Source: Eledone cirrhosa (taxonomy: Eukaryota). Taken from it: a stretch of DNA of 64,000 nt. The translations under genes and the position numbers were made by a program. Below the pieces are notes generated by a model. It was not told where the DNA came from and did no database searches. It was given only the letters and a program-made list of their open reading frames with translations. Within the stretch, counting starts at the first letter, position 1. Every line of letters begins with the position of its first letter. Positions 12,211 to 58,121 of the stretch are shown here, piece after piece. The DNA lies in assembly GCA_964016885.1 (NCBI GenBank), contig OZ024741.1, forward strand, positions 124,372,001 to 124,436,000, given 5' to 3'.

Positions 12211-12260
12211 CTATATAGGAAACCATTATTATTACTATATATATATATATATATATATGC

Positions 12261-12328
<68 letters not shown>

Positions 12329-12442
12329 GTTTGTATATGTATAATAAAGCCAAAACAATGCAGGTATGGACATAGAATAAAGAATGTAAATGCAAAAGAT
12401 ATTGTTGACAATTAGTCTTTTACCTTAGATTTATTTAAATGT

Positions 12443-12477
12443 CCTTAATTTTCGAGATAATGTCTCTTCTTCAGAGG
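12443..12477 (-). ncRNA. Candidate ultra-minimal hammerhead (F5)
   Basis: cct-CTGAAGA-a.gaga/catta/tctc-GAAA-AT-TA-agg; more degenerate copies at ~14632, 39390 and 41460; stem III is nearly absent. Confidence 0.5.
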
Positions 12478-13349
12478 GAAGTAAAGCTGTTAAACCAGTG
12501 TTCTAAATAGCTTGCCAAGTCATGCTGACAGGAAATGGTATAGAGTATCTGTTCTATCTCTAATGTCAAAGAGTTAAAATTAGGTGGATAAAGAGTAGTC
12601 TCCCTTTAAAAGGGTTTTTTTTGTTGTTTTTTTGTATAATGCCTGTTTAAGTGTGTGGGAGAATGCATGAAGGTGTAAGTATGTGAGTGTGTGTGTGTGA
12701 GTGTGAGACGATATGTCTATACGTAAATGTGGGGGATAGATGTTATCTCGTGTTAGAACTGGTTTTGTGTGTGTATGTGTGAGAGAGAATAAGTGGAGGT
12801 GTAAGCGTGTGTGTGTGCGTGCGTGTGTGCGTGTGTGTGTGGGGTGTGTGTGTGTAAATTTGGGGCTAGAAGCTCTATCAAGTTATAAATTGGGTGTTGA
12901 GTTCTAGTCTATTATTGATTGGTAGTTGTGTTTTGTCTATACTTAGTGCTTCCTTACTTCTAAGATTGCCGAAATTTCTTTCCTTAGTTTCTATCCTAAC
13001 TGTTATGGTTTTGTCGGTGTTTTGGCATTTAACTAGGTGTTTCTTAATGAGGAAGCGTTAGTATTGAGGTGTTCTTTGATTCTTATGTGGAGTGGTCTGG
13101 TGGGGCTAGCTACGTAGAAGTTGTTGCATTTGTCACACTCTAGTCTGTATACGACGTAAGCCTGGTGGCATAGGTCTGTGTCGTTGATGGAGCAGTTGGC
13201 TAGTCTGCAGCAGTTGTCATGTCTGGTGGAGTGTCTTTTGGTTAGCTGTCCGCGTAGAGAAGGACCTGAGAGGGCCAGTTGGATATCTAGTCCCTCTCGT
13301 CTGATAGCTCTGCTACATACGCATCCTTGCATCATCTCGTGAGGAGCAA

Positions 13350-14203
13350 ATATACACAACATTCTCCAGCATGGATGTCAGTATAAAGTTCAGCATGGAA
13401 CACCCCGATGACCGCGGATCCCTATCCCTACTGGACTTCCAACTCAGGGTAACAGAGGAAGCAACATCCACACCTGCTTCTATAAAAAAGCCGCCAGCAA
13501 GGACCTGTTCGTACATTTCAGATCGGCCCTCCCAACCGGCGCTAAGTTCGGATACATAAGGAACGAACTAACACGTATCCGGAACAAATGCACACACGCT
13601 AATGACCGAGACACACACACCACACATTTCCTGGAAGTACTCAAACTGAACGGATACACGACATCCACCACAAACCGTGCCAGAAAGAACAGAGGACACC
13701 ACACCCGAGGCACTAACACTTGCTTCCTGAAGCTCCCACACTTCAGTGAAGAAACAACAGCCATCCGCAGAGCTATCAGACGAGAGGGACTAGATATCCA
13801 ACTGGCCCACTCAGGTCCTTCTCTACGCGGACAGCTAACCAAAAGACACTCCACCAGACATGACAACTGCTGCAGACTAGCCAACTGCCCCATCAACGAC
13901 ACAGACCTATGCCACCAGGCTTACGTCGTATACAGACTAGAGTGTGACAAATGCAACAACTTCTACGTAGGTAGCACCACCAGACCACTCCACATAAGAA
14001 TAAAAGAACACCTCAATACTAACGCTTCCTCATTTAAGAAACACCTAGTTAAATCCCAAAACACCGACAAAACCATAACAGTTAGGATAGAAACTAAGGA
14101 AAGAAACCTCGGCAATCTTAGAATTAAGGAAGCACTAATTATAGACAAAACACAACCACCAATCAATAATAGACTAGAACTCAACACCCAATTTATAACT
14201 TGA
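13350..14203 (+). pseudogene. PLE-P1 RT C-terminus plus GIY-YIG endonuclease (frameshifted)
   Basis: SIKFSMEH...LSLLDF, FYKKA, LKLNGY, VVYRLECDKCNNFYVGSTTRPLHIRIKEH, RIKEALII...PPIN; stop at 14201-14203. Confidence 0.9.
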
Positions 14204-14221
14204 TAGAGCTTCTAGCCCCAT

Positions 14222-14307
<86 letters not shown>

Positions 14308-14819
14308 GCGCGCACACACGCACGTACACACATACACACACAAAACCAGTTCTAACTCGAGATAACATCTATCCCCCACATTTACGTACAGACATATCTT
14401 CTTACACTCACACACACATACTAACATACTTACACCTTCATGCATTCTCCAACACACTTTAAACAGGCATTATACAAAAAAACAACAAAAAAAAACCTTT
14501 TAAAGGGAGACTACTCTTTATCCACCTAATCTTAACTCTTTTACATTAGAGATAGAACAGATACTCTATACCATTTCCTGTCAGCATGACTTGGCAAGCT
14601 ATTTAGAACACTGGCTTAACAGCTTTACTTCCCTCTGAAGAAGAGATATTATCTCGAAGATTAAGGACATTTAAATAAATCTAAGGTAAAAGACTAATTG
14701 TCAACAACATCTTTTGCATTTGCATTCTTTATTCTATGTCCATACCTGCATTGTTTTGGCTTTATTATACATATACAAACGTTTATACACAATGGTTCAA
14801 GTGAACTATAACCTCCTCC

Positions 14820-17800
14820 TATATATATATATATATATATATAAATTCAAGTTTACGATTCTGGGTGTCCGCCTAAAACTAGCAAACCACCGGACCAACT
14901 CCTCAAAATTACATGTACATATTCAATATACACTTGGACAGGTAACGGTCGAAAAAGTTGTACTTTGCAAAGCAAGGAATTCATTTAAATTCAATTTATC
15001 TTATTTTCTAATGAATATGAAAAGAAATCATCCATTTTGTTTTTTTATGTTCTCCAGATAAGAAAGTGAGGGATGGGAAATAGAAAGAGAGAGAGAGTAA
15101 TGGATGAGAGAGAAAGACGATGAAAGAGAGAGAGGGAAAGTAACCAGCGTTCTTAACTTTTATTTATTTATTATTTTTACACACTTTTTAACTTTCCCGC
15201 TTCCTTAACGTTATTTATCTTTTCTTTATTTTTTATCTCTATTCCGTAGAGAGAGGGGGGATGTGAGAGAGAAATAAAAAGAGAGAGAGTAATGGGATGG
15301 GAGAGAGAGAGGGGGGGGGGAAGTGGTTAGCGTTCATTAAGTTTTATTTATTTATTATTTTTACACACTTCTTAACTCTCCCAATGTTATTTATCTTTTA
15401 TTTATTTTTTGTTTGCTATTGTGTAAGGATGAGAGAGAGAAAGAAAGAGGGGAGATGAGAAAGAGAAAGGGAGTGAGGCAGATGGGGAGAAAAAGACAGT
15501 AAGAAAAAAAAGTTTGGAGAGAGAAAAAAAAGTAAAGAGGCAGGAGAGAGGGATTCTTTAACTAACGTGTGTCCGCGTTTATATGTATATTTACACACAA
15601 ATGTGTGTGTGTTAAGGGAGGAAGGGAGGGAGGGGACGTTCGTTAGCAGACGATATATGTTACCATCAAAGCTTATTTTCTACATATGTCTAAAGAAATC
15701 ACAGCAGCTTTTATAGTAGTTGTATATATGTATGTATTTAACAGACGAAAAAAAAAAGGTATTTTTAAAAGATATTATTTGAATATATTATTTTTCGCTG
15801 TTATTTGAATTAACACAGACAATATTTTTTTTGTAGTGTTTGTCGTTTTTGGGGATACAATCTGAAATCCCAATATTTTCTACATAGGTCTAAAATTAAT
15901 TACACCTAATATACATTCATATAAAGAGATCATTTAAAACAACTTCACTGAGTGAACAATACATTCTATAGTTGTTTCTATTTCGGAAAGAGTGTGGTGT
16001 GTAATAATTGTTTCGACGTTTGGCACAAGGCCAGCAATTATTCCAGTGCATTACTGGTACTTTATTTTATCGTGTGGTGTGTAATAATATCACTTCAAAT
16101 GCCTAGAAAACGTTCCAGATCATTATATGGAAGGTCATCTTCAGAGGCTAAGAGAAAGTAAACACAGCGATCTGAAGAAAGTGAAGTTCGGCATGCCCGT
16201 CTAGCTGCTAACAGAGCCCAAACAGCTTTAGCACGAGCAAACCGTTTGGATGAAAGGGAACGAAGGACTGTTGCTACACGAGAACAACAAATTAAGGAAC
16301 AGCAGCAAATCAGACGAAATGCTAATCAAGCACATCGTTCTACTGCCCGACAGGAGAACAAGCCACAAGTAAAATGAACTGGCTGATGGGTGCTTTTTCT
16401 TATGACCCCCAAAAGGACTACAGCAGTAATCCACAAATCAACATTGGCAAAATGAACAAATGCTGTCAGTATTGTGGTTCCAAGAAGTGTGCAGCAAAAA
16501 TACCAAGTTTATGCTGCTCAAAAGGCAAAGTGAGCCTTAAAACAATACAAGAACCTCCTGAATTTCTGAGGAATCTGCTCCTTCAGCATACACCAGAAGC
16601 ATGACACTTCAATAAATACATCATAAAATATAATTCTGCCTTTCAAATGACATCTTTTGGGGCTGACAGGAATGTGACTGACTTTAGATTCTGTACAAAT
16701 AAAATTCAGGGACAGTGTTACCACTTAATGGGTGGCCTTCTGCCACTTTCACAGGAGCCTAACAGATTTGTGCAGGTTAAATTCATGGGTGGAATGAAAC
16801 ACAGGCACAACAAAGATGTACCAATGTCCATGGTGGATTGCAGTTCTACATAGTCATAAAGTTACAAGAAATGCTTCACCAACATCACATGTACGCCATG
16901 TATTTAAATATGCACTGGAGCATATGAACAACACCAGAGATCGTAAAATAATCATTAGGGCAGAGAAACGCCCAGCTTCAGAACATGAACGCAGATTCAA
17001 TGCACCTCTCACTGATGAAATTGCATTCATAATGGTTGATGAACAGCATGAACGGCGTGACATAGTTTTGCAAAAACGAAGTGGACATTTGGAGCGAATT
17101 TGTGAAACTCAGAGCCTATGATTCACTCCAATTAACCGCTCATCTTTTGGAATGGTCAAGATGAATATCATTTTCAGCTATGGTAGATCAGCCCAGGAAC
17201 AGGACAAGAGACTGGCCGATCAATCAGCTGCAAATAATTCTATGCTTATCATTTCATGGTTCGTGACCACTTCAAACAAATTCTGCGATTCAAAGAAGTA
17301 ACCAGCTAGTTCATGGTGGACATGTATGACAAAATTGAAACAGAAAGATTGGGTTTTCTGCGAAGGAATCAAACTAAGTTGAGGGCAGATAACTACATCC
17401 ACCTTAGAGATGCCATCAATTCTGATGTTGACCCAAGAAATATTGGCCATCACGCTTCACGGGAGGACCACGTTACATGCATGAATACATGCATGAACTT
17501 ACGCAAGATGCAATGGCCTATGTCAGAAAATTTGGTCGGCCAGATATCTTCATTACATTTACATGCAATTCAAACTGGTCAGAAATATCAAATGAATTAT
17601 TTCAAAATCAAAAACCAAAGGATCGACATGTCCTTATTGCTCGGGTTTTACATGAAAAGCCAAAAAAAAAAACTCATCTGGCTCCTAAAAGAAGGAAGAC
17701 CACTATTGAGTGACAGAAGAGAGGTCTTCCTCACTCTCACACACTAATCTGGTGCAAGGAGAAGGTAATACTAGATGATGTTGATAAGATCATTTCAGAA

Positions 17801-35908: not shown

Positions 35909-37214
<1,306 letters not shown>

Positions 37215-37377
37215 TAGTATATCTACTAACATATATATACAGATGCATACTTATGCCAGCAAATATATAGGTTTTGTCTTCGTAACTTTGTGGTTCAATG
37301 CATGTGGATGCAGAACAATAATATGAAAGACGTAAAATAAGAAGATTATAAAAATTAACTTACTTACTAAAATTTCA

Positions 37378-37456
37378 CTCCAACTAATTAGTTTCTGAAA
37401 GCGAATAAACATAGTTTCCGAAGAAACGTACGGAGAAGCATTTCGTTATCAGGGAA
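37378..37456 (-). ncRNA. Degenerate hammerhead (F8)
   Basis: Minus strand: ttcc-CTGATAA-long stem II-GAAA-CT/AATT/AG-TT-ggag; G8A without a compensating change. Confidence 0.55.
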
Positions 37457-37479
37457 GTCTATTCTCAGCTAAGTTTCCA

Positions 37480-38040
37480 GGCGATGCGTGGCCACAGGAA
37501 ACTTATACAAAAATAATTCAGTGGATGGAAAAAATTGTGTTTTACTATAAAACGTTGTCCTTCTTTGAAATAGAATGAACCAAATCCTACGAACACACGA
37601 TATCATAAAGAGCAAAAGACAATCTAAGTCAATGGAAAACATCCTAACACATGCCAAAGTACTGCCAACCACAACAACGAAACCCACAGTAAAAAAAATG
37701 CGATAGACCCAACTGTGGCATATGCATCAACCTAATAGAGGGTTCGGAATTCTATTTCAAAAAGGACAACGTTTTATTATAAACCACAATTTCACATGCG
37801 CATCAGAAAATCTAATATATGTATTACCTCGCTCAGGTTGTCGAGAACAATACATAGGCCAGACCAAAAATAGCCTCCGCCAACGCATGACTGTCCATAG
37901 ATCCCAAATTAAAATACGGGAATACAGAAAAATACCACTGAGTGAACACATTGATACATGTGCCACCCAAAATCATCCCAACTTCAGAATCTTTCCCCTC
38001 TACAAATTTAAAGATAATGCCACCCACACCCAGCGCATCA
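37480..38040 (+). pseudogene. PLE (Neptune-like) zinc-knuckle plus GIY-YIG fragment
   Basis: KCDRPNCGIC in an adjacent frame, then FTCASENLIYVL...GCREQYIGQTKNSLRQRMTVHR. Confidence 0.85.
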
Positions 38041-39135: not shown

Positions 39136-39150
39136 CTAATACATGATATA

Positions 39151-39218
<68 letters not shown>

Positions 39219-39230
39219 TATATATATATA

Positions 39231-41548
39231 GGAGGAAGTTATAGTTCACTTGAAGCATTCTTTAATGAGGTATAAACGTTTGTATATGTATAATAAGCCA
39301 AAACAATGCAGGTATGGACATAGAATAAAGAATGCAAATGCAAAAGATATTGTTGACAATTAGTCTTTTACCTTAGATTTATTTAAATGTACTTAATTTT
39401 AGAGATAATATCTCTTCTTCGGAGGGAAGTAAAGCGGTTAAACCAGTGTTCTAAATAGCTTGCCAAGACAGGAAATGGTATAGAGTATCTGTTCTACCTC
39501 TAATGTCAAAGAGTTAAGGTTAGGTGGATAAAGAGTAGTCTCGCTTTAAAATATTTTTTTTGTACATGCCTGTTTAAGTGTGAGAGAATGTGGGAGGTGT
39601 AGGTATGTGTGTGTGTGAGAGTGTGAGAAGATATGTCTATACGTATATATGGGGGATAGATGTTATCTCTTGTTAGAACTGGTCTTTGTGTGTGTATGTG
39701 TGTGTGTGAGAGAGAATAAGTGGAGGTGTAAGCGTGTGTGGGGGGTCGTGTGTGGGGGGGGGGGGCGAGGGGGTGTAAATATGGGGCTAGATGCTATATC
39801 AAGTCATACGTAGACTACACCAACTCAAGCCAGAACAACTTACACTAAATAGATACGCCTTTAGCCTCGACGCTGTCTCCCTCTACATTACAGTCCCCGC
39901 TCATCCAGCTGTCAACTTATTGACGGAATGCGTGGTCGCAGAGGACATTCACGGATACGGCCTCCTTCCGACGGACATACACCAGTTTTTGTCCTTCACA
40001 GTGGACAACACGTACTTCACCTTCCACCACCACACATTCAGACAGACAACAGTATTACCCATGGGATCCAGCCTATCGGGCCTGCTGGCCATCACCTATA
40101 TGAACCAGCTAGAATGCCGAGCCCTCAACATCTACCATTCCTATACCTTCTTCACCCTATATGTAGATGACATACTCATCCTTACATCATGCCGTGAGGA
40201 GGCGGATAAAATATACACAACATTCTCCAGCATGGATGCCAGTATAAAGTTCAGCATGGAACACCCCGATGACCGCGGATCCCTATCCCTACTGGACTTC
40301 CAACTCAGGGTAACAGAGGAAGGCAATATCCACACTTGCTTCTATAAAAAAGCCGCCAGCAGGGACCTGTTCGTACATTTCAGATCGGCCCTCCCAGCCA
40401 GCGCTAAGTTCGGATACATAAGGAACGAACTAACACGTATCCGGAACAAATGGACACACGCTAGAGACCGAGACACACACACCACACATTTCCTGGAAGT
40501 ACTCAAACTGAACGGATACACGACATCCACCACAAACCGTGCCAGAAAGAACAGAGGACACTAAACCCGAGGCACTAACACTTGCTTCCTGAAGCTCCCA
40601 CACTTCAGAGACGAAACAACAACAGCCATCTGCAGAACTATCAGACGAGAGGGACTAGATATCCAACTGGCCCACTCAGGTCCTTCTCTGCGCGGACAGC
40701 TAAGCAAAAGACACTCCACCAGACATGACATCTGCTGCAGCTAGCCAACTGCCCCATCAACGACACAGACCTATGCTACCAGGCTTACGTCGTATACAGA
40801 CTAGAGTGCGACAATTGCAGCAACTTCTACGTAGGTAGCACCACCAGACCACTCCACATAAGAATACAAGAAGACCTCAATACAAACTTTTCCTCATTTA
40901 AGAAACACCTAGTTAAATGCAAAAACACCGAAAAAACCATCACAGTTAGGATAGAAACTAAGGAAAGAAACCTCGGCAATCTTAGAATTAAGGAAGCACT
41001 AATTATAGACAAAACACAACCACTAATCAATAATAGACTAGAACTCAACACCCAATTTATAACTTGATATAGCATCTAGCCTCATATTTACACCCCCTCC
41101 CACACACGCGCACACACACACGCACACACACACACACTCCCTCCACTTATTCTCTCTCCCACACACACATACACACACAAAGACCAGTTCTAGCACGAGA
41201 TAACATCTATCCCCCACATATACGTATAGACATATCTTCTCACACTCACACACAAACACACACACACATACTTACACCTCACACATTCTCCCACACACTT
41301 AAACAGGCATGTACAAAAAAAAACCCTTTTAAAGGGAGACTACTCTTTATCCACCTAACATTAACTCTTTGACATTAGAGATAGAACAGATACTCTATAC
41401 TATTTCCTGTCAGCATGACTTGGCAAGCTATTTAGAGCACTGGTTTAACCGCTTTACTTCCCTCCGAAAAAAATATATTATCTCTAAAATTAAGGACATT
41501 TATATAAATCTAAGGTAAAAGACTAATTGTCAACAATATCTTGTGCAT
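39231..41548 (+). mobile_element. Penelope-like element P1, second copy, with inverted 5' segment
   Basis: 39231-39803 is an inverted 3' UTR and tail; 39804-41548 is direct; homologous to 13350-14819. Confidence 0.9.
39804..41067 (+). pseudogene. PLE-P1 reverse transcriptase plus GIY-YIG (disrupted)
   Basis: SLDAVSLY, LPMGSSLSGLLA, YVDD, KFSMEH, FYVGSTTRPLHIRI. Confidence 0.92.
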
Positions 41549-41607
41549 CATATATATATATATATATATAAACGGAAAAAATGAAACGAAAAAAAAAAAC
41601 ATACTTA

Positions 41608-41661
<54 letters not shown>

Positions 41662-41663
41662 CA

Positions 41664-41705
<42 letters not shown>

Positions 41706-56610: not shown

Positions 56611-56943
56611 GGTATTTCACAAGTCACTCACACACTCATATACACACATATACACATACACATATATATATATATACACATACACACACACACGCCCATA
56701 TACATACATGCATGTATATATATGTACACACACACATACATACACACACATGTACATATACACACCCATATACATATACACACACGTGCTCTCACATACA
56801 CACACTCAGATCCCCCTATGTATATGTCTGTAGGTGTTTGTGTATATGAATAGATGTACGCGTACGCATTTGTGTGTCCATCTATGCGTGTGCGTGAGTG
56901 TGTGTGCGTGTATGTACGTGTGCGTGCGTGTGGGAGGTATGTT

Positions 56944-56975
<32 letters not shown>

Positions 56976-56977
56976 CA

Positions 56978-57020
<43 letters not shown>

Positions 57021-57021
57021 A

Positions 57022-57105
<84 letters not shown>

Positions 57106-57147
57106 ACTATATATATATATTATATATATATTATATATATATATATG

Positions 57148-57225
<78 letters not shown>

Positions 57226-57227
<2 letters not shown>

Positions 57228-57502
57228 TGACGTAAAATAAGAAAATTATAAAATTAACTTACTTACTAAAATATCACTTCCAAGTGGAAATTATAAAATT
57301 AACTTACTTACTAAAATATCACTTCCACTGGAAGTGATATTTTAGTAAGTAAGTTAATTTTATAATTTTCTTATTTTACGTCTCTTATATTATTGTTCTG
57401 CAACCCCATGCATTGAACCACACTGTTATTAAGACAAAACCTATATATTTGCTAGCATTGATATGCATCTGTATGTATATATATGTTACTAGATATGAAT
57501 TC
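57226..57502 (+). mobile_element. F8-family tail preceded by two inverted partial copies
   Basis: 57329-57502 matches the reverse complement of 37211-37381; 57229-57281 and 57288-57327 are inverted copies of its start. Confidence 0.8.
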
Positions 57503-58121
57503 TTTATATATATATATATATATATATATAAAAGCAAGTCGGTCTGTGTGTGTGTGTGTCTGTCTGGTTGTGTACAAATACTAGGCTTCTTTTAACTTTT
57601 GAAGTACTAGGCCGATTTCAACCAAATTTGGCACACGTATTGCTTATATGCCAGTGCAGGCTTTGGAAAAAAACGATATTGGGGCCAAAAAATCGATTTT
57701 GTGTGTGTATCTGGCTGTGTACAAATACTAGGCTCCTTTTAACTTTTGAAGTACTAGGCCGATTTGGCACGTACTATTGAGGCGACCTCTCATCGGCTCG
57801 CCAATTAGCTAACATAAGCTGACATGCACTCAGAAATTGCTAGCTAAGCCATACACAACCTTGAACAATTTGCCCGATTGAAGGTCGCGATTTCTAATTG
57901 GACTACGCAACTAACATTAGTCAACATAACTGAACATATACCGTGCATATTCCTGTGAGAAATACGTTTGATAGCACGACGTTCAATCATGTCACTGTAC
58001 ACCTATTTTGTTAAACTTTTTTTACAATTACATTTCAATTCTTTGCTCAACCTTTGGCTCTCTTTATACAGACAAACAGGCTGTCATTCATTTCCCGAGC
58101 AACGCTGGGTGCATCTGCTGG
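57501..58121 (+). mobile_element. Non-autonomous Helitron
   Basis: TC...(TA)n start; GT-rich tract; 'ccgatttcaaccaaatttggcaca' subterminal motif; 3' hairpin ccc.agc/gctggg then CTGG-T. Confidence 0.7.

What the first reader, a model, noticed from the sequence alone, without database searches (positions are those of the whole stretch)
57226..57502. Insertion whose 5' junction coincides with the ribozyme cleavage site (strong-stop-like product)
Seen: in the F8 copy (37378-37456, minus strand) the predicted 3' cleavage product starts 'ggagtgaaattttagtaagtaag'. The insert here starts 'ggaagtgatattttagtaagtaag', and both inverted partial copies preceding it stop at the same point ('cacttcca'). Inference: reverse transcription ran from the element tail to the ribozyme-cut RNA 5' end and then snapped back or re-primed repeatedly. 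This would be a genomic fossil of in vivo cleavage and of the template-jump step that builds pLTRs.
Basis: partly seen in the sequence, partly recalled or inferred. Interest (0 to 1): 0.75.

Follow-up and report, generated by a model that had tools for sequence, protein, structure and literature searches.

The report
Ribozyme-cut footprint in retrozyme hairpin insertion
This 280-base insertion consists of two back-to-back end pieces of a young, protein-free repeat carrying a hammerhead-ribozyme motif, joined within two bases of the predicted self-cut site; almost all copies run straight through that site, but back-to-back joins pile up just after it and nearly vanish before it, so a small share of copies, likely including this one, were probably copied from RNA that had been cut there.

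Summary
Window 57226-57505 sits in (TA)n and holds a short inverted arm, a 46-nt middle piece and a 176-nt forward arm. It belongs to a young 522-bp hammerhead-bearing tandem element, a non-LTR retrozyme with Penelope-type ends. The arms stop 1-2 nt beyond the predicted GUU/GGAAG cut. The middle piece contains an inverted copy of the neighbouring junction, so it is not an independent stop.

Only 21 of 1762 copies lose the family bases just upstream of the cut. The biggest hotspot is an ATAT at +8, and ordinary asymmetric inversions are flat across the site. Symmetric hairpin joins, however, are about ten times denser at +18..-2 than at -3..-36 (post-hoc test). Two unrelated loci repeat this linker.

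Best reading: a few percent of insertions came from RNA ending at the cut, were copied from both target ends, and were repaired with templated patches. A folded-ribozyme block is not excluded. The pLTR template-jump claim is unsupported. The scan noted similar junctions in other genomes, with mixed verdicts.

The parts
56940..57225 (.). Left target: long (TA)n microsatellite; no target-site duplication can be read
57226..57281 (-). Arm A: inverted copy of unit positions +56..+1, starting at the family's inner 3' end (site 2); one substitution at +54
   Evidence: site 2 is a fixed family end
57282..57287 (.). Junction 1: aa (matches family -1/-2) plus gtgg; 57283-57289 agtggaa is the reverse complement of 57323-57329
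57288..57326 (-). Piece B: second inverted copy, +39..+1; likely a DNA-templated patch made during joining
   Evidence: origin inferred
57327..57329 (.). Junction 2: a-c-t centre of a perfect 40-bp-arm hairpin (57288-57368); the same linker occurs at an unrelated C12 locus, and a-c-t-t at a C6 locus
57330..57505 (+). Arm C: forward copy +1..+176, from the predicted hammerhead cut to the outer 3' end (site 1); identical to a young unit
57506..57530 (.). Right target: (TA)n
37205..37535 (-). Older-subfamily copy ('F8'), approximate limits: hammerhead motif at about 37375-37460 with a G-to-A change in the core, predicted cut 37382|37381, ends at site 1 in (TA)n

Best explanation
The insertion is a head-to-head pair of 3' end pieces of a 522-bp hammerhead-bearing non-coding repeat, likely made by a Penelope-type enzyme that primed reverse transcription from both ends of a (TA)n break on RNA whose 5' end was probably the ribozyme cut, after which the two DNA ends were likely joined with templated patches. 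Shown: the anatomy, two fixed 3' ends (+56 and about +176), the hammerhead fold with covariation, read-through in the great majority of copies, and the step in hairpin density at the cut. Inferred: (1) both cDNAs ran off at +1 and gained an A; (2) lacking complementarity there, one end slipped on the CA repeat in CACTTC-CA to add CT(T), and iterative copying made piece B and the agtggaa linker; (3) in most such events the ends are instead trimmed to the nearest microhomology (ATAT/AATT at +8..+14, or the TA target), which gives the pile-up just downstream; (4) most insertions come from uncut multimeric or circular RNA. The cut-template class is roughly 3-5% of young insertions (about 33 scaled hairpins plus 6 at the site, against an insertion number of about 1000 that I estimated, not counted).
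For: Hammerhead is real by covariation: 98.4% of 252 cells paired and 23 double changes, against 6.8 in shuffles (0 of 500 reached it). The 18 rows were picked by a motif search, and related rows inflate this. Two fixed 3' ends: 102 of 106 inverted pairs have one arm at each site, matching the two RT start sites and tail in PMC11167929. Hairpin density relative to a microhomology-weighted null: 0.084 at +3..+18, 0.093 at -2..+1 without this locus, 0.010 at -13..-3, 0 at -36..-20; 14 downstream against 2 upstream, p about 1e-7, or 6e-6 with three near-symmetric upstream cases added. Asymmetric inversions are flat (0.128, 0.156, 0.118, 0.127), as expected if the limit acts on both arms together. 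TA-joined solo ends also fall, from 0.195 and 0.087 to 0.028 and 0.029. No perfect hairpin uses the 12-nt palindrome at -12..-1 genome-wide (0 of 4 loci), against 5 at the 4-nt ATAT in 100 of 371 rows. The linker recurs at C12 and C6, and L209 ends at +1 on both arms. L394 and L400 pair a one-unit-longer site-2 arm with a short site-1 arm, both ending at +8..+13, which argues against a simple arm-length limit. R2 shows this logic of run-off, untemplated bases and microhomology (PMC3774820, passages).
Against: Over 95% of arms cross the site. In 164 arms from less biased sets the hazard at -2..+2 was 2 of 793, no peak (those sets exclude short hairpins). The peak is at +8, not +1. Arms end at -1/-2 more often than at +1 (23 rows against 8). 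Once hairpins are removed, partner arms cross the site equally often (7 of 26 against 17 of 52 not crossing, p=0.78). With weak microhomology weights, expects about 6 loci and shows 4, so the palindrome argument depends on that assumption. L214 has an arm that crosses the cut and still ends in a hairpin. The hairpin class was defined after seeing the data. The nine 'young' hairpins are my reading. Denominators 1925 and 1850 are scaled from local ratios, and the +3..+18 set mixes subfamilies. No cleavage or RNA data exist for this element. PMC11167929 found cleavage unnecessary in vitro and no RNA reads ending at the cut in Anolis. Rfam found no hammerhead, and the core has a GUU triplet and a C-A apposition at the base of helix II.
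Confidence: 0.55

Rival explanations
1. The RNA is uncut, but the folded or protein-bound hammerhead blocks both reverse transcriptases on the same molecule, so both arms stop at or just before the motif.
For: The peak at +8 lies at the 3' base of helix I (+1..+6). Many ends at -1/-2 match uncut sequence. PMC11167929 reports that uncut RNA is the dominant substrate in vitro.
Against: Independent stalling would also enrich asymmetric inversions, which are flat. Several arms end at +1/-1, after passing helix I (window, L077, L196, L209). +8 is also the first AT microhomology downstream of the cut.
Confidence: 0.2
2. Coincidence. Hairpins are a short-arm by-product concentrated between site 2 and about 60 nt upstream and steered by AT microhomology, and this locus merely falls at the edge of that range.
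For: Ends are elevated across +21..+32 too: about 59 true junctions in the first 100 of 425 rows by eye, with a guessed denominator. The main hotspot is a palindrome. Earlier scan notes on other genomes reached this verdict.
Against: Median arms are about 450 nt long. Hairpin density does not fall from +32 towards +1 but collapses within about 10 nt beyond it (6-8 hairpins by eye). There is no palindrome at the cut, yet the linker recurs at three loci. Long site-2 arms end in the same zone.
Confidence: 0.18
3. A single cDNA ended near the cut and repeatedly snapped back on itself, making all three pieces in one reaction.
For: The agtggaa/ttccact relation reads naturally as a snap-back on the lower strand. 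Palindromic junctions are common in Penelope elements (PMC3846280, passages).
Against: A 1-nt loop cannot fold back within one strand (established nucleic-acid geometry). Arm A ends at site 2, which in other copies starts arms longer than the partner, so it is an independent priming site.
Confidence: 0.05
4. Assembly or library artefact (fold-back chimera).
For: No public contig spanned the junction.
Against: Both outer ends sit at the family's two fixed sites. The same architecture occurs in over 100 loci, and the same linker occurs in different flanks.
Confidence: 0.02

Closest known systems
Insertion unit of endonuclease-bearing Penelope-like elements: inverted 5'-truncated copy, one-sided tail, palindromic junction (PMC8557442 and PMC3846280, passages; PMC11167929, parts 1-2 of 4 read)
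   Same: Head-to-head arms, two fixed 3' ends, (TA)n targets, microhomology joins, and a hammerhead just upstream of the RT start sites
   Different: No ORF in the unit (longest stop-free stretch 84 codons). The tail is about 120 nt rather than 30-40. In the passages I read, these papers do not tie junction position to the ribozyme cut.
Metazoan non-LTR retrozymes (PMC7229834, passages; bioRxiv 10.64898/2026.07.22.740005, part 1 of 5 read)
   Same: Non-coding head-to-tail repeats with one type I hammerhead per unit, dispersed and tandem copies, and a short palindromic helix III suited to dimers
   Different: The unit is 522 bp against about 170-400 nt. RNA, circles and cleavage are untested here. 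The hairpin class tied to the cut is not described in the passages read.
PLE hammerheads (PMC4209133, passages)
   Same: Type I, long helix II with an extra base at its 5' end, short helix I, small palindromic helix III
   Different: Additional A opposite the extra C, a long insert in helix II, and a GUU cleavage triplet
R2 retrotransposon 5' junctions set by an HDV-like ribozyme (PMC3774820, passages)
   Same: Ribozyme cut defines where the cDNA runs off; untemplated bases and microhomology finish the junction
   Different: In R2 the cut defines the full-length 5' end. Here it accounts for a small minority, the ribozyme is a hammerhead, and the join is cDNA to cDNA.

Membership tests
Type I hammerhead ribozyme (PLE/retrozyme kind) | Core CUGANGA...GAAA...NUH with three helices | tested here: met
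   Core intact in 248 of 255 motif-selected copies; helices I-III covary; triplet GUU; C-A apposition at the base of helix II is non-canonical; no Rfam hit
Type I hammerhead ribozyme (PLE/retrozyme kind) | Self-cleavage at the predicted site | not testable with these tools
   Needs an in vitro or 5'-OH RNA assay
Non-LTR retrozyme | Tandem repeats with a hammerhead in consecutive units | tested here: met
   Arrays with period 521-522, e.g. 8 listed matches at C1:170798353-170802174
Non-LTR retrozyme | No protein coding | tested here: met
   Longest stop-free stretch 84 codons
Non-LTR retrozyme | Expressed as linear and circular monomer RNA | not testable with these tools
   No RNA holder listed
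Penelope-type insertion | Inverted 5'-truncated partner with a one-sided tail (two RT start sites) | tested here: met
   102 of 106 inverted pairs have one arm at each of two fixed ends; the window conforms
Penelope-type insertion | AT-rich or (TA)n target | tested here: met
   Window flanks; most 3' flanks
Autonomous Penelope-like element | RT + GIY-YIG ORF between pLTRs of this family | tested here: inconclusive
   32 of the 40 longest ORFs in held loci were scanned. GIY-YIG hits occur in L362, L319 and window 13412-14200, but I did not link them to this unit, and no genome-wide partner search was made.

The most novel reading that the evidence does not exclude
Hammerhead cleavage happens in germ-line cells, and the cut RNA is itself a substrate for Penelope-type integration. 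Both cDNAs of one insertion are limited by the same RNA end, so hairpin insertions are a genome-readable assay of in vivo ribozyme activity and of two-ended priming. The CACTTC-CACT(T) linker would record the telomerase-related RT re-copying a few bases at the template boundary.
Probability: 0.4. Interest if true: 0.62.

Novelty: new variant of a known kind. Interest (0 to 1): 0.42.

Why it matters
The role of hammerheads in Penelope-type elements is described as unclear (PMC8557442, passage), lacked in vivo evidence in PMC4209133, and was dispensable in vitro in PMC11167929. A step in junction density at the cut would show that cut RNA is used for a small share of insertions while uncut or circular RNA makes the rest. 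It can be tested on any genome with a repeat library. The element and its layout are ordinary.

Tried and rejected
Rfam scans of the window and of one unit gave no hammerhead hit, and free folding did not give the hammerhead, so the fold rests on motif and covariation.

(window -2..+13) was swamped by an older subfamily (2314 matches), and (+25..+37) by sister families (6503). Neither was used for rates.

An apparent coupling of partner arms (11 of 14 against 7 of 19) vanished when hairpins were removed and was rejected.

The 12-nt palindrome test alone is assumption-dependent.

An extra T at the cut as a template-jump scar (2 of 1762) was rejected as within background.

No RNA holder was listed. 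Contigs of four runs neither spanned the junction nor gave strand-change joints on a unit.

An AT-rich control at +107..+121 gave 99 rows, about 70 true by eye. Its denominator was only estimated, so it is supporting colour.

Literature searches listed no paper whose title or abstract start links PLE or retrozyme junctions to the hammerhead cut. Subscription journals and all supplements were not seen, and figure S2 of PMC11167929 may bear on this.

Full report
What is there. Between two (TA)n runs the window holds, in order: arm A (57226-57281, inverted, unit +56..+1), aagtgg, piece B (57288-57326, inverted, +39..+1), act, and arm C (57330-57505, forward, +1..+176). Position +1 is the G after the predicted cut. 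Arm C is identical to a young unit. A search of the own genome gave 40 full-length 100% matches among 40 scored of 1115 candidates, including a tandem array with period 521. The unit is 522 bp and has no long ORF.

The ribozyme. Young units read ACUUUC-CUGACGA-C-GGAAUG...CAUUCC-A-GAAA-CUAAUUAG-UU|GGAAGU. Across 18 copies from several subfamilies, chosen by motif search, 98.4% of 252 cells pair and 23 show double changes, against 6.8 in shuffles. Related rows inflate that control, but sliding the partners destroys the pairing. Helix III is a palindrome with a 2-nt loop, the dimer-type design described in PMC4209133 (passages). Rfam does not recognise the motif. The F8 copy is an older one with a G-to-A change in the core.

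The insertion unit. In 102 of 106 inverted pairs one arm ends at about +56 and the other at about +176, both next to (TA)n. This is the inverted copy plus one-sided tail of Penelope-like elements (PMC8557442, PMC3846280, passages). PMC11167929 (parts 1-2 of 4 read) explains the tail by two RT start sites. The outer ends of this insertion are therefore ordinary.

The junction. A ends cacttcc-aa, B ends cacttcc-a, and C is preceded by t. These bases match family positions -1/-2, so the stops are 1-2 nt beyond the cut, or at it with added A. The linker agtggaa is the reverse complement of ttccact at the other junction, so B is best read as a templated patch. The independent stops are A and C.

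The histogram. The 24-mer at +1..+24 has 1762 exact matches. Only 21 have non-family bases at -3 and -4, and three of those are indels or a TA replacement. Wider patterns gave 79 rows for -13..0, 75 for -36..-20, and 371 of 3814 for +3..+18 (mixed subfamilies). Of 78 distinct rows held for -13..0, 31 fall at -2..+1 and 47 at -13..-3. After merging duplicates by hand this is about 23 of 63, against a simulated share near 0.21 (p about 0.004). The largest apparent hotspot is +8, the start of ATAT (29 of the first 100 rows, my tally). In 83 arm records from C1 0-128 Mb (two of them merging artefacts), 5' ends spread over the whole unit, with two near the cut. In 164 arms from four sets the hazard was flat at 0.09-0.34 per 100 passes per nt; those sets exclude short hairpins by construction. 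So there is no dominant peak, and most templates were uncut multimers or circles (inference).

Splitting by junction type. I fetched loci for all 100 listed rows (100 of 371 matches), all 75, and 78 of 79. Per 100 arm passes per nt, for +3..+18, -2..+1, -13..-3 and -36..-20, the rates were: asymmetric inversions 0.128, 0.156, 0.118, 0.127; symmetric hairpins (ends within 12 nt) 0.103, 0.104, 0.009 and 0 of 75 events; TA-joined solos 0.195, 0.087, 0.028, 0.029. The denominators 1925 and 1850 are scaled from local ratios. A null that lets both arms pass freely, applies the same filters and weights microhomology gives 14 hairpins downstream against 2 upstream for the young subfamily without this locus, p about 1e-7. 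With three near-symmetric upstream cases added, p is about 6e-6. The class was defined after seeing the data, and the nine young hairpins are my reading.

Genome-wide, four loci have the two +1 ends within 13 nt, and none uses the perfect 12-nt palindrome just upstream. That test alone is not significant under weak microhomology weights (about 6 expected). At +21..+32 I judged about 59 of the first 100 of 425 rows true and 6-8 to be hairpins, by eye and with a guessed denominator; hairpins there are not denser than at +3..+18. Against the reading: with hairpins removed, partner arms cross the cut equally often (p=0.78), and L214 crosses the cut yet ends in a hairpin.

Recurrence. An unrelated C12 locus has the same a-c-t hairpin centre, a C6 locus has a-c-t-t, and an older-subfamily locus (L209) has both arms ending at +1 with one base between. 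No palindrome lies at the cut itself.

Mechanism. Most likely (0.55) two cDNAs primed from the two target ends ran off RNA ending at the cut. They gained an A, slipped on the CA of CACTTC-CA to make a joinable end, and here went through one further round of templated copying. Usually such ends would be trimmed to ATAT/AATT or to the TA target. The flat asymmetric class suggests the limit acts on both arms together. L394 and L400, where a one-unit-longer site-2 arm ends beside a short site-1 arm, fit a multimer cut only at its 5' ribozyme. A block by the folded ribozyme on a shared RNA (0.2) and a short-arm coincidence (0.18) remain. Nothing here shows a template jump building pLTRs: units are seamless, and the extra T at the cut (2 of 1762) is within background.

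Comparison and novelty. The element is a new member of the non-LTR retrozymes with Penelope-type ends (PMC7229834, passages; bioRxiv 10.64898/2026.07.22.740005, part 1 of 5). RNA-level criteria could not be tested, and no autonomous partner was identified. Ribozyme-defined 5' junctions are known for R2 (PMC3774820, passages). My searches listed nothing linking hammerhead cuts to PLE junctions; supplements and subscription papers were not seen. Earlier scan notes report this architecture many times in this genome and cut-site junctions in other genomes with opposite verdicts. They are unchecked and not counted as evidence.

Verdict: real, partly as interpreted, a minority footprint with moderate support; interest 0.42.

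Noticed in passing
window 12237-14849 and 39149-41703: Several related direct and inverted segments of another repeat; ORF 13412-14200 hits GIY-YIG (E 1e-6) and ORF 39791-40561 hits RVT_1 (E 1.5e-11), likely decayed Penelope-like elements of a different family.
   Followed up: partly
window 50104 (+), 53730 (+), 49041 (-): Three near-identical hammerhead-like motifs of another family.
   Followed up: no
L316-L345 (C1 2.5-29 Mb): Abundant sister families (6503 pattern matches, period about 540-560) share the site-2 motif and helix III but have variable A/T runs between the cut and site 2, which makes them natural controls for the step.
   Followed up: partly
L079, L080, L081 (C18, C1636): Copies in which the whole hammerhead 5' of the cut is deleted precisely up to +1; probably one event duplicated; the same join appears as a loose end in public contig set X2.
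   Followed up: partly
L063, L206, L194: Junctions with repeated restarts at or near the cut (two or more short copies beginning tggaagtgatatt).
   Followed up: no
alignment A1, columns 23 and 74: A C-A apposition closes helix II in all subfamilies aligned, instead of the usual G-C pair.
   Followed up: no
L066-L068 (C2 330.427-330.434 Mb): One hairpin insertion (+4/-2) appears three times about 3.5 kb apart with partly shared, noisy flanks: a local duplication or assembly redundancy; counted once.
   Followed up: partly
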